Source: Octopus vulgaris
Lineage: Eukaryota
Length of the DNA: 64,000 bases
Assembly (NCBI GenBank): GCA_951406725.2
Contig: OX597817.1
Location: forward strand, 23,188,001-23,252,000
Direction of reading: 5' to 3'
The position numbers were made by a program, and so were the translations under genes. The notes under the pieces are model-generated. The model did no database searches. It was not told the origin of the DNA and saw only the letters and a program-made list of their open reading frames with translations. Shown here one piece after another: positions 1 to 61,052 of the stretch (its first letter is position 1; the number at the start of each line of letters is the position of its first letter).

Positions 1-199
1 CCTGAAGAAAATTCTAACTGGGCCCCACCTGCAAGGTCATGTGCTGTTTATCTTGATATGAGATCACCATGTCGCGCACATATGGTTGTGATGCATGTGC
101 CTGGTGTACCTTTATCAGACGGATAGTCATGATGGGTATATTGGGCTTCGTATATTTTACCCCAGTGTCACTTTGATGGCATGCACTGCTCTCTCACTC
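1..199 (+). mobile_element. 3' end of a (TAA)n-tailed retroposon (same family as 13427-13795)
   Basis: Ends ...gcactgctctctcactc directly into (AAT)n; near-identical reverse-complement copy at 13427-13600. Confidence 0.75.
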
Positions 200-9780: not shown

Positions 9781-10122
9781 AATACAGTGTACATTTAAAC
9801 ACATAAGGAATCCACTCGTGGAATTCAACACGCTAGAAATAACACCTAGGTTCAATAACCATAAAATTAGGGATAAAATCCCGACAGGAAAGAAATGACA
9901 AAATAAGCACTTTTACCATCCAGTTTCCTGGACCAATTGGTTTCTGATTTTAGTTTTTAAGCTGAAATCAGAAGTCAATTGGTCCAGGAAACTAGATGGT
10001 AAAAGTGTTTACTTCTTCATGTCGAGATTTTATCCCTAAAATGTGGTTATTGAAACTAGCTGTCCTTTCTAGCATGTTGATTTCTATTAGTGGATTCCTT
10101 ATTTGTTTAAATGTACACTGTA

Positions 10123-23234: not shown

Positions 23235-23705
23235 TATACCTTTATTGCCCACAAGGGGGCTAAAGATAAAGGGGACAAACAAGGACAGACAAAGGGACTA
23301 ATTCGATTACATCAACACCAGTGCGTAACTGGTACTTATTTAATCGACCCCGAGAGGATGAAAGGCAAAGTCGACCTTATCAGAATTTGAACTCAGAACG
23401 TAGCGGCATGTGGCGCAATGGATAACGCGTCTGACTACGGATCAGAAGATTCCAGGTTCGAATCCTGGCAAGCTCATACTCATTTTATTTCGGTATCATT
23501 TGGGAGAAAGTCGTGCTAATGAACATTTTACACTATACATGTTAAAAATTAAAGCACATATTCATGATTATGCGTATGCACGTTGTGTGTGTGTGTCAGC
23601 ATGCGCGCTTATCTGTCTCTCTGACAGTAAATAGAGGTCAGTAAAGAGATCAGCGCGCAAGCAGTAAAGGTTAAAGCCTAGCGTGCTAACAATTCTGCCA
23701 GCTAG
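23235..23705 (-). mobile_element. SINE family B interrupted by a tRNA-bearing insert
   Basis: Matches 53047-53263 up to gaacgtagcggca (23408) and resumes at gcctagcgtgctaac (23677). Confidence 0.85.
23404..23476 (+). tRNA. tRNA-Arg(ACG), probably pseudogenic (imperfect acceptor stem)
   Basis: tggcgcaatggataacgcgtctgactACGgatcagaagattccaggttcgaatcctggcaagctc has canonical D, anticodon and T arms, followed by a T-run at about 23483. The 5' acceptor strand cggcatg has two mismatches. Confidence 0.9.
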
Positions 23706-29819: not shown

Positions 29820-30020
29820 CTGGGCGAAATGCGTATCCATATTTCGTCTGTCGTTACGTTCTGAGTTCAAATTCCGCCGAGGTCGACTTTGCCTTTCATC
29901 CTTTCGGGGTCGATAAATTAAGTACCAGTTACGCACTGGAGTCGATGCAATCGACTTAATCCGTTTGTCTGTCCTTGTTTGTCCCATCTGTGTTTAGCCC
30001 CTTGTGGGCAATAAAGAATT
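29820..30020 (+). mobile_element. SINE family B
   Basis: gttctgagttcaaattccgccgaggtcgactttgcc...ccccttgtgggcaataaagaa. Confidence 0.85.
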
Positions 30021-30254
30021 ATATCTCTCTGCCTGTCGGCTTATATGTCTGCTTATCCTTCTTCTTGTCCGTGTAACTGTCTGCCTCTTTCCTTCCTTGT
30101 CTCAGTCTCTCTTTCTTTCTTTCTTTCTCTCATTCTTTCTATATGCTCATAGAAGAGCATTACACATGTAAATTTATTGTTATTCTTATAGTCATTACAT
30201 GTCCGTTTTACATCTTGATATATATTTCCTTTGAACATTGTTTGTAATTGTTAC

Positions 30255-46515: not shown

Positions 46516-46712
46516 AATGAGGGTGAAAAATTTGATATTAATTTAATAATACCATCAATTTAACACCAAGTGGCTTAGCACATAAAAACCAAGGATATAA
46601 TACAAATTTATGCACAAATATGAGAGTGGCTGTACCATAGTGTATCTATTTTTAGCACCAGAGTAGACTACATAGTGGTCGCTCTCTCATATTTATATAT
46701 ATATATATATAT

Positions 46713-47142
46713 AACGTAAGGGGGATCAGCCATCTGAATGTGGCTAGGGACAGGGCGGAGTGGTGGGGGTGTTACTGATGCTTTTAGCCCCAGGCGATCA
46801 TCAACGTCACCAGAATGACTGACACCATATCGGTGTCCCTGTTTGCCTGTAAAGGGAGGTTATCCTCCCTCAAAGATACGGATGCTACATACGGACCGGT
46901 TTCGAGGTCAACCGGTCCGTATGTAGCATCCGTATCTTCGAGGAAGGATAACCTCCCTTTACAGGCAAACAAGGACACCGATATGGTGTCAGTCCTTCTG
47001 GTGACGTTGATGATCGCCTGGGGCTAAAAGCATCAGTAACACCCCCACCACCCCGCCCTGTCCCTAGCCACATTCAGATGGCTGATCCCCCTTACGTTGT
47101 CGAGCAGTTACTGTTTATATCTCGTTCAGAGATTTATTATTG
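46713..47142. mobile_element. 386-bp near-perfect palindrome plus 44-bp tail (PLE-type inverted terminal repeat)
   Basis: Arms 46713-46901 and 46910-47098, loop tcgaggtc; flanked by (TA)n; homologous to 51920-52448. Confidence 0.9.
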
Positions 47143-47144
47143 TT

Positions 47145-47180
<36 letters not shown>

Positions 47181-51575: not shown

Positions 51576-51919
51576 TTTTAGGGAGATGGGATTTGTTGAA
51601 GTTCTCACGTATCTCGTAAGAATTAAAAATATATCAGACTCGAGGAGCCTATCAACATTTACCTATTCCAAGTAACTCAGAAGCATAAGCGCATTACAAA
51701 CAAAGAGTATGGCTGAAAATCCAGTAGTGACCATCACACATATACCTTGGTCTCTATTACGACCACCTTATCTCACACAGAAAAACGTGGATATGAAAAT
51801 AAACTATGTAGTCATGTAATACACAGACTGAAAATTCTTCTGTTTTCTTTATCGTGCCCTAAATATATGTTACCCTCGGTAATGAGTAAAAAGTTTTTCA
51901 GGGATTCTCTTAACATACA

Positions 51920-52448
51920 GCAATAATAAATCTCTGAGCGAGATGTAAACAGTAGGCGCTCGACAACAGTAGTATACTAGCCATCTCAATATGGCTAACT
52001 ACTAGGGGTGGGTGTTACTCTAGCTAAAAAGCTACAGTAACAACCACCCCTAGTGGTTAGCTTTATTTAGATGGCTAGTATACTTTACGTTGTCGAGCGC
52101 CTACTGTTTACATCTCGCTCAGAGATTTATTATTGCTTTCAGACCGTTTTTCGAAATCAGTGACTGTGGTTACAGGGAAAACCATTAAATAGATATTCGC
52201 AAACAGGTCTCTCTTATCGAAAACCCGTGATTACCGTGTGTTGACAAGAGACAATAATCTCGAAACTGCAGTCCATGCGTATCACTTAAGTTTACGAGAG
52301 GGCTGACCTTCCTTTGCAAATATCATAAGAGTGTCTGGATAATTGTGTCTAAAGCCAGCTGGAGACGATGATCTCCTGGGGCTAAAAAAGCTACAGTAAC
52401 ACCCACCCCTAGTGGTTAGCCATATTGAGATGGCTAGTATACTTTACG
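51920..52448 (+). mobile_element. PLE-type insertion with 5' fold-back, decayed HHR and 11-12-bp TSD
   Basis: TSD tcttaacataca at 51908-51919 and 52449-52460; palindrome at 51920-52136; third copy of the terminal motif at 52380-52448. Confidence 0.85.
52236..52278 (+). ncRNA. Decayed hammerhead motif
   Basis: gtgtg-TTGACAA-gaga(caataa)tctc-GAAA-ctgca-GTC-catgc; core is two transitions from CTGACGA. Confidence 0.6.
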
Positions 52449-53046
52449 TCTTAACATACAATTCTTAATAATCAAAATTTCGGAAGCAGCACTGCTGAAG
52501 ATCAACCTCAACTTAGATTTTCACTCTATATGGCAGACAATCAACAATGTTACATAAATCGCGTCTTACATCACACCAGCAATTTCGTCAACATCCAAGT
52601 TTTATAGATAAACTCAACAAGTGTTAAAATATCAACAGCTACGTCAAACAGTCACAGATCAGAAAGTTCAAAGTACCTTCCATCAGACGGTTTCAGAGCT
52701 ACATTCCGATATTCGATAAATCCAGATAGATTCAATGAAATAGAGTCAGTGTTGCATTTTCTTCAAAGGATACCTTATGATTCTGCCAATTCTTAAATAA
52801 TATTCTTATTTCCAAGTTTGAAAGGTCAAGGAAACTTCAAGCATTGAATACATCTCGTACGCATTTCTTTCTGTACATGAGGTCCAGCTGCTCTTATGAC
52901 CTACAATACACACTCACATCCACTTTGTACGCATCCTTATTCTTCATGGAAACGCTCTCCACAAGGAACTTAGACACTGCATGTCAAATGTTCTCGGTCA
53001 CAGTGATTAGACGTCGGAAACAGAGTGAGTTTAGGACAATATATAT

Positions 53047-53263
53047 TTCTTTACTACCCACAAGGGGCTAAACACAGAGGGGACAAACAAGGACAGACAC
53101 ACGGATTAAGTCGATTATATCGACCCCAGTACGTAACTGGTACTTATTTAATCGACCCCGAAAGGATGAAAGGCAAAGTCGACCTCGGCAGAATTTGAAC
53201 TCAGAACGTAACGGCAGACGAAATACCGCTAAGCATTTCGCCCGGCGTGCTAACGTTTCTGCC
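53047..53263 (-). mobile_element. SINE family B
   Basis: Near-intact copy; caatata on both flanks. Confidence 0.9.
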
Positions 53264-60430: not shown

Positions 60431-60540
60431 AATTCGGGGTGAGTACTTGATAATTATAAGCACCTGTGTATACCGTTTGGTGGTGTAGGTGCTGGAGTAA
60501 ATTGATCAAAATAAAATAAAAACATGATGCGAAGGATTCA

Positions 60541-60618
60541 GCGGTACATATGTTTCGGGCCTTTATTAGACAGATTTATAACAAAGCATAATGTATGTCT
60601 GTGGCCTTCTTCAGCCGC
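60541..60618 (-). ncRNA. Hammerhead ribozyme (minus-strand copy)
   Basis: Reverse complement of 60885-60962. Confidence 0.8.
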
Positions 60619-60884
60619 GCACAACAGCTTCCACAAGGACATGTGTTACATCAAAAGTTCTTGGTTGGGGATGCAAATCCTCTCGTTCACGTACGACATA
60701 ATGCGGCAGCAGCATAGAATTGAAGCGTCCATCTCTTTGCATCCCCAACCAAGAACTTTTGATGTAACACATGTCCTTGTGGAAGCTGTTGTGCGCGGCT
60801 GAAGAAGGCCACAGACATACATTATGCATAGAATTGAACCAAGAACTTTTGATGTAACACATGTCCTTGTGGAAGCTGTTGTGC

Positions 60885-60962
60885 GCGGCTGAAGAAGGCC
60901 ACAGACATACATTATGCTTTGTTATAAATCTGTCTAATAAAGGCCCGAAACATATGTACCGC
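60885..60962 (+). ncRNA. Hammerhead ribozyme with long stem II
   Basis: gcgg-CTGAAGA-a-ggcc(acagac...tctgtctaataaa)ggcc-c-GAAA-catat-GTA-ccgc; palindromic ACATATGT stem III. Confidence 0.8.
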
Positions 60963-61000
60963 TGAATCCTTCGCATCATGTTTTTATTTTATTTTGATCA

Positions 61001-61052
<52 letters not shown>

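What the first reader, a model, noticed from the sequence alone, without database searches (positions are those of the whole stretch)
46713..47142. 386-bp palindrome folded at a hammerhead stem III
Seen: 189-bp arms and an 8-nt loop. Across the apex the minus strand reads ctc-GAAA-CCG-GTC-cgtatg, the 3' half of an HHR with palindromic ACCGGT, in the same position relative to the terminal motif as the HHR at 52236 in the homologous element. Inference: cDNA snapped back at the self-complementary ribozyme stem. The locus could extrude a cruciform or yield long dsRNA.
Basis: partly seen in the sequence, partly recalled or inferred. Interest (0 to 1): 0.75.

Follow-up and report, generated by a model that had tools for sequence, protein, structure and literature searches.

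The report
Ordinary inverted ribozyme-repeat insertion
The 386-base mirror repeat is real, but it is two truncated, head-to-head pieces of a common small repeat that carries a predicted self-cutting RNA motif, likely pasted in by a Penelope-like jumping gene, and its turning point on the ribozyme stem is probably chance, because sister copies turn at many other places.

Summary
In detail: 189-bp arms with 5 mismatches, an 8-nt loop, the 3' half of a type I hammerhead (HHR) at the apex, a 44-nt tail on the right arm only, and (TA)n on both sides.

The locus is a sub-monomer copy of a ~360-bp non-coding tandem repeat (retrozyme / non-autonomous Penelope-like). Unfolded copies carry a covarying HHR whose core is the known U3-A8 variant, not CUGANGA. 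This locus holds no complete ribozyme.

Inversion is the family norm (57 of 99 loci). Junction ends are not enriched at stem III (2 and 3 of 56; 2.3 expected each). No exact ACCGGT-centred fold exists in the genome. The loop is simply family sequence reached only by the left arm. The ribozyme-directed snap-back is therefore unsupported.

One family-level lead is new to me: the tail-less arm outruns the tailed arm by 1-60 nt far more often than chance (17 of 53 vs 6.2; sister families 10 of 23 vs 3.7). This fits fold-back of the first cDNA at arbitrary sites, with a second primer supplying the tail.

The scan has already found such Penelope/HHR palindromes elsewhere in this genome. Verdict: new member of a known kind.

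The parts
46689..46712 (.). Left target flank, (TA)n microsatellite
   Evidence: Sequence
46713..46910 (-). Inverted, tail-less arm: unit positions 317 down to 121/120 of the 361-nt family unit; likely the first cDNA, started at the family's fixed internal site
   Evidence: Viterbi parse L055 -317>121; the same end found exactly at 102 places beside (TA)n
46888..46907 (-). 3' half of a type I hammerhead (3' strand of helix II, GAAA, palindromic helix III, GUC site, 3' strand of helix I); the 5' half (UUGAUAA core) is absent
   Evidence: the only YTGANRA match on either strand of the locus is the unrelated TTGATGA
46902..46909 (+). 8-nt loop: antisense family sequence (unit 128-121) reached only by the left arm; 1-nt microhomology (A, 46910) at the join
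   Evidence: Unfolded copies continue GGTTTCGAGGTCATTGCC; a=121, b=129, mh=1
46910..47098 (+). Direct arm, unit 129-317; begins in helix III; predicted cleavage site after 46917
47099..47145 (+). 44-nt Penelope-type tail (unit 318-361, plus 3 nt of the next unit) on the right end only
   Evidence: +129>3; present in 53 of 57 inverted copies
47078..47143 (+). 22-codon ATG-started frame across the pLTR end and tail; possibly a relic of a PLE ORF start (inferred)
   Evidence: Frame; PMC3846280 passage describes pLTR+tail encoding the first 22 aa; no long ORF among 150 of 6091 genomic candidates scored
47146..47178 (.). Right target flank, (TA)n microsatellite
   Evidence: Sequence
51919..52450 (+). 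Sister-family copy (separate insertion) with a complete U3-A8 HHR at 52235-52279 and its own inverted junction near 52025; context only

Best explanation
The palindrome is one head-to-head insertion of a ~360-bp hammerhead-bearing non-coding repeat, likely made when a Penelope-like reverse transcriptase primed cDNA from both nicked strands of a (TA)n site and the tail-less cDNA likely turned back onto a complementary cDNA strand at a site that probably owes nothing to the ribozyme's palindromic stem. Shown: family identity; the two fixed ends (unit 317 without tail, 361 with tail); 5' truncation of both arms (at 121 and 129); a 1-nt microhomology; scattered junctions; and the family-wide excess of small loops in which the tail-less arm is the longer. 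Inferred: (1) a PLE GIY-YIG/RT protein acting in trans nicks both strands; (2) cDNA 1 starts at 317 and stops at 121, just past helix II; (3) its 3' end switches from RNA to antisense cDNA (its own 5' part, or the sister cDNA) and copies sense sequence from 129; (4) cDNA 2, primed at the tail end from the other nick, supplies the tail; (5) the five mismatches accumulated afterwards. The locus cannot self-cleave and is most likely inert debris.
For: 99 distinct loci were ascertained by the tail-less end, independently of the junction: 57 inverted, 53 of them of exactly this form. Junction ends span the whole unit; in the stem III window 126-140 there are 2 (a) and 3 (b) of 56 against 2.3 expected each. 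Pooled with sister families, 14 of 164 ends lie in a 21-nt HHR window against 9.1 expected, p=0.11. The tail-less arm is longer in 41 of 53 (sign test p=8e-5). It is longer by 1-60 nt in 17 of 53 vs 6.2 permuted (p<1e-4), and 16 of 52 without this locus. Sister families replicate this: 10 of 23 vs 3.7, p=0.0006. Pooled, there is a sharp edge at zero: 24 at +1..44, 5 at -44..-1, 9 at +45..88, of 76. All 17 small-loop cases have a tail-less arm shorter than 317 nt, which holds no tail to copy, so a second primer is needed. Microhomology of 2 nt or more occurs in 15 of 42 non-insertion joins vs 15% null, p=0.001. Arms within an insertion differ by 1.4-1.7% vs 5.2% between loci. PAc protein cleaves and extends both strands and starts RT at two sites that bound the tail (PMC11167929). 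Inverted 5'-truncated copies with a one-sided tail are standard for PLEs (PMC8557442; PMC3846280).
Against: No autonomous element sharing this pLTR or tail was found. Arm identity does not separate fold-back from two-RNA joining: shared-variant mismatches are 5 of 25 in small-loop hairpins vs 16 of 83 in others. One near-register hairpin (L084) has 10 diagnostic differences, which means two templates. Counting the tail, the arms are balanced (25 of 53 left longer), which also fits coupled twin priming. Three of 20 small-loop apexes do centre within 3 nt of the HHR GAAA, including a sister-family copy (L213) with nearly this geometry, so a weak HHR effect is not excluded; without this locus P=0.36 for a 21-nt window. 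No contig in 8 public runs bridged the apex.
Confidence: 0.7

Rival explanations
1. One reading: the cDNA snapped back because the HHR helix III (ACCGGT) is self-complementary, so the ribozyme dictates the apex.
For: The apex lies on helix III here. Sister copy L213 has almost the same geometry (left arm stops in loop II, restart in the helix III palindrome), and L203 has a complex junction there. 3 of 20 small-loop centres lie at -2.5..+1 from GAAA.
Against: The exact ACCGGT-centred product is absent genome-wide. There is one exact hairpin here vs 11 at a control site (the control site is covered by more copies, so the comparison is not matched). Ends are not enriched. The stretch does not fold intramolecularly; the best cDNA 3'-end fold (GACC/GGTC, about -2.4 kcal/mol) would give a different junction. 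It does not explain the tail.
Confidence: 0.1
2. Two independent, 5'-truncated cDNAs from two RNAs (or two units of one tandem RNA) were joined end to end by microhomology repair, and the near-perfect register here is coincidence or reflects synchronised RT dimers. There was no fold-back.
For: Most junctions have large offsets of either sign. L084 has two different templates. A chimeric insertion joins a tail-less arm of a sister non-coding family to a 5'-truncated autonomous PLE by a 3-nt microhomology (L172/176/177/178, one junction). About 6 of the 17 small-loop cases are expected by chance.
Against: Independence is rejected (p<1e-4; p=0.0006). Equal-length synchrony predicts symmetry around +44, but 24 vs 9 are seen (p=0.014). 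The chimera has a single origin and could be a later deletion.
Confidence: 0.3
3. A longer inverted insertion lost its centre by deletion after insertion, leaving the apex at helix III.
For: Long palindromes are known to suffer central deletions (recalled). A 1-nt microhomology is compatible.
Against: It cannot explain why the tail-less arm is systematically the longer.
Confidence: 0.07
4. Assembly or library chimera (fold-back artefact).
For: No contig from 8 public runs bridged the apex (contigs only, fragmented in the repeat).
Against: Five arm mismatches, four seen in no other parsed locus. The arms end at the family's two fixed biological ends. The tail is present on one side only. 53 loci share the architecture.
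Confidence: 0.03

Closest known systems
Metazoan non-LTR retrozymes (Cervera & de la Pena 2020, PMC7229834, passages; Li, Clavereau & Pollet 2026, 10.64898/2026.07.22.740005, abstract/introduction/part of methods)
   Same: Non-coding ~360-bp tandem unit with one type I HHR per unit (mussel units are 350-390 bp); dispersed in many copies; proposed to be non-autonomous PLE derivatives.
   Different: This locus is less than one monomer and has no complete HHR; circular RNA and cleavage were not shown for the family; the passages I saw do not describe head-to-head inversions.
Inverted 5'-truncated pLTR insertions of EN+ Penelope-like elements (Arkhipova et al. 2013, PMC3846280; Craig et al. 2021, PMC8557442; Schostak et al. 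2008, PMC2377424; passages)
   Same: Head-to-head inverted copy, 30-40-bp tail (44 here) at one end, microsatellite target; palindromic junctions already interpreted as self-priming in PMC3846280.
   Different: No ORF. The partner enzyme is unidentified. The passages I saw propose self-priming on an antisense template and give no arm-length rule.
PAc (Poseidon, Anolis) in vitro TPRT (Frangieh et al. 2024, PMC11167929, parts 1-2 of 4)
   Same: Both strands nicked and extended in AT-rich DNA; two RT start sites bounding the tail; HHR cleavage not required, which matches arms that run through the cleavage site.
   Different: The text I read does not explain how inversions are joined.
PLE minimal hammerheads with U3-A8 core and palindromic helix III (Cervera & de la Pena 2014, PMC4209133, passages)
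   Same: U3-A8 in place of C3-G8; palindromic helix III for dimer folding; HHR pairs on opposite strands 100-700 bp apart.
   Different: Here U3-A8 and C3-G8 subfamilies coexist within one repeat clan, with a canonical-length helix I.
LINE-1 twin priming (recalled, from no call)
   Same: Two target-primed cDNAs give an inversion joined by microhomology.
   Different: In L1 the two cDNAs cover different parts of one RNA. Here both arms cover the same sequence, giving a palindrome.

Membership tests
Type I hammerhead ribozyme (family unit) | Core CUGANGA ... GAAA ... NUH | tested here: met
   Met as the published U3-A8 variant, not literally: among 84 distinct motifs the 3-8 pair is U-A 75, C-G 6, C-A 3; 487 exact motif matches genome-wide; variant described in PMC4209133
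Type I hammerhead ribozyme (family unit) | Helices I and II with compensatory changes | tested here: met
   98.8% of cells paired; 6 of 13 pairs with double changes; 0/500 shuffles. The 13 rows were hand-picked for diversity and the motif pattern presupposed helix II
Type I hammerhead ribozyme (family unit) | Short palindromic helix III (dimer type) | tested here: met
   75 of 84 distinct motifs palindromic, in three forms of 52, 12 and 11
Type I hammerhead ribozyme (family unit) | Rfam hammerhead match at gathering score | tested here: inconclusive
   L003: RF02275 28.2 bits, E 1.2e-5, gathering 52; none for 52210-52310; none among the 150 of 212 rows shown for the window
Type I hammerhead ribozyme (this locus) | Complete core on one strand | tested here: not met
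   5' half absent on both strands
Type I hammerhead ribozyme (family unit) | Self-cleavage | not testable with these tools
   Needs an in vitro assay
Non-LTR retrozyme | Tandem ~300-390-bp non-coding units, each with a type I HHR | tested here: met
   Met for the family: units of 357-361 nt, arrays of 2-5 units. This locus is a sub-monomer fragment
Non-LTR retrozyme | Expressed circular monomer RNA | not testable with these tools
   Only contigs of runs with guessed type were available
EN+ Penelope-type insertion | Inverted 5'-truncated copy, one-sided tail, microsatellite target | tested here: met
   This locus and 53 of 99 loci
EN+ Penelope-type insertion | Autonomous RT + GIY-YIG element sharing the pLTR/tail | tested here: inconclusive
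   A young 1312-aa PLE-like family exists, but its pLTR showed no BLAST match to this unit; the 30-aa tail peptide found no ORF over 167 aa in 150 of 6091 candidates

The most novel reading that the evidence does not exclude
Penelope-type inversions follow a quantitative rule that reveals the missing joining step of PLE transposition: the cDNA started at the inner (tail-less) site folds back on itself with a 3-45-nt loop, and a second cDNA primed at the outer site on the other nick supplies the tail. RNA stems act as pause points (a G/C hairpin at unit 169-173, weakly the HHR helix II), and arms from two different RNAs, even non-autonomous plus autonomous, can be joined in one event.
Probability: 0.4. 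Interest if true: 0.5.

Novelty: new member of a known kind. Interest (0 to 1): 0.27.

Why it matters
The locus itself is ordinary: a dead fragment among thousands of copies. Its value is as a member of a young, abundant non-coding family whose junctions can be counted. Reviews call the origin of PLE tandem/inverted structures undefined (PMC8557442, passages), and the existing in vitro system stops short of it (PMC11167929). The arm-length asymmetry gives that system a concrete prediction: hairpin products from the inner start site, completed by the outer one.

Tried and rejected
Whole-window Rfam scan: only sub-threshold miRNA-like hits at the hairpin, and no hammerhead in the rows shown. Rfam on 52210-52310 and 60860-61010: nothing.

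Public runs: no RNA holder listed. Contigs of 8 runs laid on the locus did not bridge the apex or an empty site; this is uninformative either way. A contig of a run only guessed to be RNA holds family sequence with the unfolded HHR, not this locus.

My early idea that the arm mismatches are template variants was rejected: 4 of 5 are private, 1 is shared with 2 loci.

The idea that junctions mark the HHR cleavage site was rejected: no peak at 137.

Search for the autonomous partner: ten singleton HHR loci gave no linked PLE ORF. The 1312-aa family has an unrelated pLTR; Pfam gave no hit on it, so its RT and GIY-YIG labels are my reading of motifs (recalled). The tail-peptide search found only non-coding copies. 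Five sister-family loci that seemed to diverge at the HHR were divergent subfamily copies or one mis-parsed inversion, not autonomous elements.

Rows dropped: 2 of 102 pattern hits were unlisted; 1 duplicate (L035); 1 complex locus (L102) left out of the 56; 3 tail-less joins left out of the 53; 7 multi-segment loci left out of the arm comparison (46 used); 2 of 25 sister-family junctions left out of the 23 because they ran off the locus end. L203 was added by eye.

Literature searches for an arm-length rule or HHR-directed fold-back listed none by title or abstract; no supplements were read.

Full report
1. Observation. The inverted repeat is as described: arms 46713-46901 and 46910-47098, 189 nt, 97% complementary, 8 nt apart, with five mismatches and loop TCGAGGTC. 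The right arm continues for 44 nt (47099-47142) with no mirror, and both flanks are (TA)n. The minus strand at the apex carries the 3' half of a hammerhead. It aligns with the HHR of the element at 52140-52450 (66% over 206 columns, E 6e-14). The hairpin folds at -241 kcal/mol as DNA and -386 as RNA; this is a computation, not evidence of extrusion or transcription.

2. The family. A DNA search of the genome (2.8 Gb) gave 2699 candidates, 40 scored, 30 fetched. Unfolded copies show a tandem unit of 358-361 nt. In L003 coordinates the HHR is at 100-142, ACCGGT at 130-135, the predicted cleavage after 136, the tail-less end at 317, and the tail at 318-361.

A degenerate motif matches 487 places exactly (control 0), with both U3-A8 and C3-G8 subfamilies. 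Among 84 distinct motifs in my loci the 3-8 pair is U-A 75, C-G 6, C-A 3, and helix III is palindromic in 75. On 13 hand-picked variants, 6 of 13 pairs change on both sides and 98.8% of cells pair. Rfam gives only a sub-threshold HH9 match (28.2 bits). U3-A8 and palindromic helix III are described for PLE hammerheads (PMC4209133, passages). Units of this size with one type I HHR are non-LTR retrozymes (PMC7229834, passages), argued to be non-autonomous PLE derivatives (10.64898/2026.07.22.740005, part 1 of 5). This locus lacks the 5' half on both strands, so it cannot self-cleave.

3. The apex. In unfolded copies the antisense strand continues from ACCGGT into TTCGAGGTCATTGCC. The loop is therefore family sequence: the left arm runs to unit 121, the right arm starts at 129, and they share one A.

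To ask whether helix III attracts junctions, I ascertained copies by the tail-less end beside (TA)n, independently of the junction: 102 exact matches, 100 fetched, 99 distinct. Of these, 57 have an inversion, 53 of exactly this form, and 42 have none. Of 56 junctions (one complex locus dropped), 2 left ends and 3 right ends fall in 126-140, against 2.3 expected each. Adding 26 junctions of two sister families (one re-read by eye), 14 of 164 ends lie in the 21-nt window from helix II to the cleavage site, against 9.1 expected from the flanks (p=0.11). The exact product of ACCGGT self-pairing occurs 0 times. This locus is the only exact hairpin with its apex within 30 nt of helix III, against 11 at a control site (not matched for copy number). 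The 12-nt stretch around ACCGGT does not fold intramolecularly.

Against my reading: 3 of 20 small-loop apexes centre within 3 nt of GAAA, and sister copy L213 nearly repeats this geometry. Without the focal locus this is 2 of 19 (P=0.36 for a 21-nt window), a hint at most. The one significant hot spot is elsewhere: 7 of 56 left ends at 169-173, in a G/C hairpin (scan p=0.002; two of the seven share both breakpoints and may not be independent).

4. What the junctions do show. The tail-less arm reaches further 5' in 41 of 53 (p=8e-5). It is longer by 1-60 nt in 17 of 53 against 6.2 under permutation (p<1e-4; 16 of 52 without this locus). Sister families give 10 of 23 against 3.7 (p=0.0006). Pooled over 76: 24 at +1..44, 9 at +45..88, 5 at -44..-1. 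The edge at zero fits a 3' end turning back on an antisense cDNA better than equal-length synchrony, which would centre on +44 (p=0.014). In all 17 small-loop cases the tail-less arm is under 317 nt and holds no tail to copy, so a plain snap-back is insufficient and a second priming at the tail end is needed.

Microhomology of 2 nt or more is enriched (15 of 42 vs 15%, p=0.001), and 14 of 56 joins have extra bases. Arms of one insertion differ by 1.4-1.7% against 5.2% between loci (46 loci), so both usually come from one source; L084 is a clear two-template exception. Counting the tail, arm lengths are balanced (25 of 53), which keeps twin priming with end-joining alive as a rival.

The PAc protein nicks and extends both strands in AT-rich DNA, starts RT at two sites bounding the tail, and does not need HHR cleavage (PMC11167929, parts 1-2 of 4). 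Inverted truncated copies with a one-sided tail are the PLE norm (PMC8557442; PMC3846280, which also reads junction palindromes as self-priming; PMC2377424; passages only).

5. Mobiliser. Not identified. [quoted passage not shown] That is my reading of recalled motifs; Pfam was silent. Its pLTR does not match this unit. Four loci (L172, L176-178) join an inverted arm of a sister non-coding family (about 83% identical to this one) to a 5'-truncated sense copy of that element at one shared junction with a 3-nt microhomology. This suggests, from a single origin, that arms from two RNAs can be joined; a later deletion is the alternative. The tail-peptide search found no long ORF in 150 of 6091 candidates.

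6. Artefact. Contigs of 8 public runs did not bridge the apex, which is uninformative. The five mismatches (four private), the family's two fixed ends and 53 like loci make an artefact unlikely.

7. Verdict. The feature is real and of a known kind. The ribozyme-directed snap-back is unsupported, while a general fold-back is plausible. Earlier notes of this scan describe the same class, and a short-end/long-end rule, on other pieces of this genome. I did not see the arm-length rule in the papers listed by my searches. I read passages only and no supplements, and subscription papers such as Arkhipova 2006 were not searched. Limits: exact-match ascertainment favours young copies in clean (TA)n; parses covered 1.5-2 kb; breakpoints are good to a few nt.

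Noticed in passing
window 51919-52450: Sister-family insertion with a complete U3-A8 HHR (52235-52279, palindromic helix III of 8 nt) and its own small-loop inversion near 52025; the tail-less arm is again the longer; not in (TA)n.
   Followed up: partly
window 60498-61005: Another inverted repeat (169-nt arms, 100% complementary) with, by eye, a CUGAAGA-type HHR and nested inversions: a young insertion of an unrelated Penelope-type family. Rfam found nothing on 60860-61010.
   Followed up: partly
L172, L176, L177, L178 (G000 C2:59.07 Mb; C28:6.93, 8.29, 8.36 Mb): Chimeric insertion: inverted arm of the C3-G8 sister repeat joined by a 3-nt microhomology to a 5'-truncated autonomous PLE-like element; same junction in all four, with different arm lengths.
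   Followed up: partly
L193-L198: Very young PLE-like family with intact 1311-1312-aa frames, an Asn-rich insert before the RT, and microsatellites inside its pLTR; 11,112 candidates; no Pfam hit.
   Followed up: partly
unit 169-173 (L036, L038, L042, L052, L062, L100, L110): Hot spot for the end of the tail-less arm inside a G/C hairpin (7 of 56). The 42 non-inverted copies seem by eye to end often at 183-209, another hairpin (not tested).
   Followed up: partly
L152-L160: Single HHRs with an ACUAGU helix III and a different helix I, matching this unit only over the ribozyme: a further family sharing the HHR module.
   Followed up: no
window 9892-10023: About 130-bp imperfect hairpin (83% self-complementary), MITE-like or another inverted stub.
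   Followed up: no
window 23404-23476: tRNA-like match above the Rfam gathering score (52.5 bits); gene or SINE head not determined.
   Followed up: no
window 29822-30024, 53041-53243, 23256-23408: Copies of a ~200-bp dispersed repeat, 88-92% alike, SINE-like.
   Followed up: no
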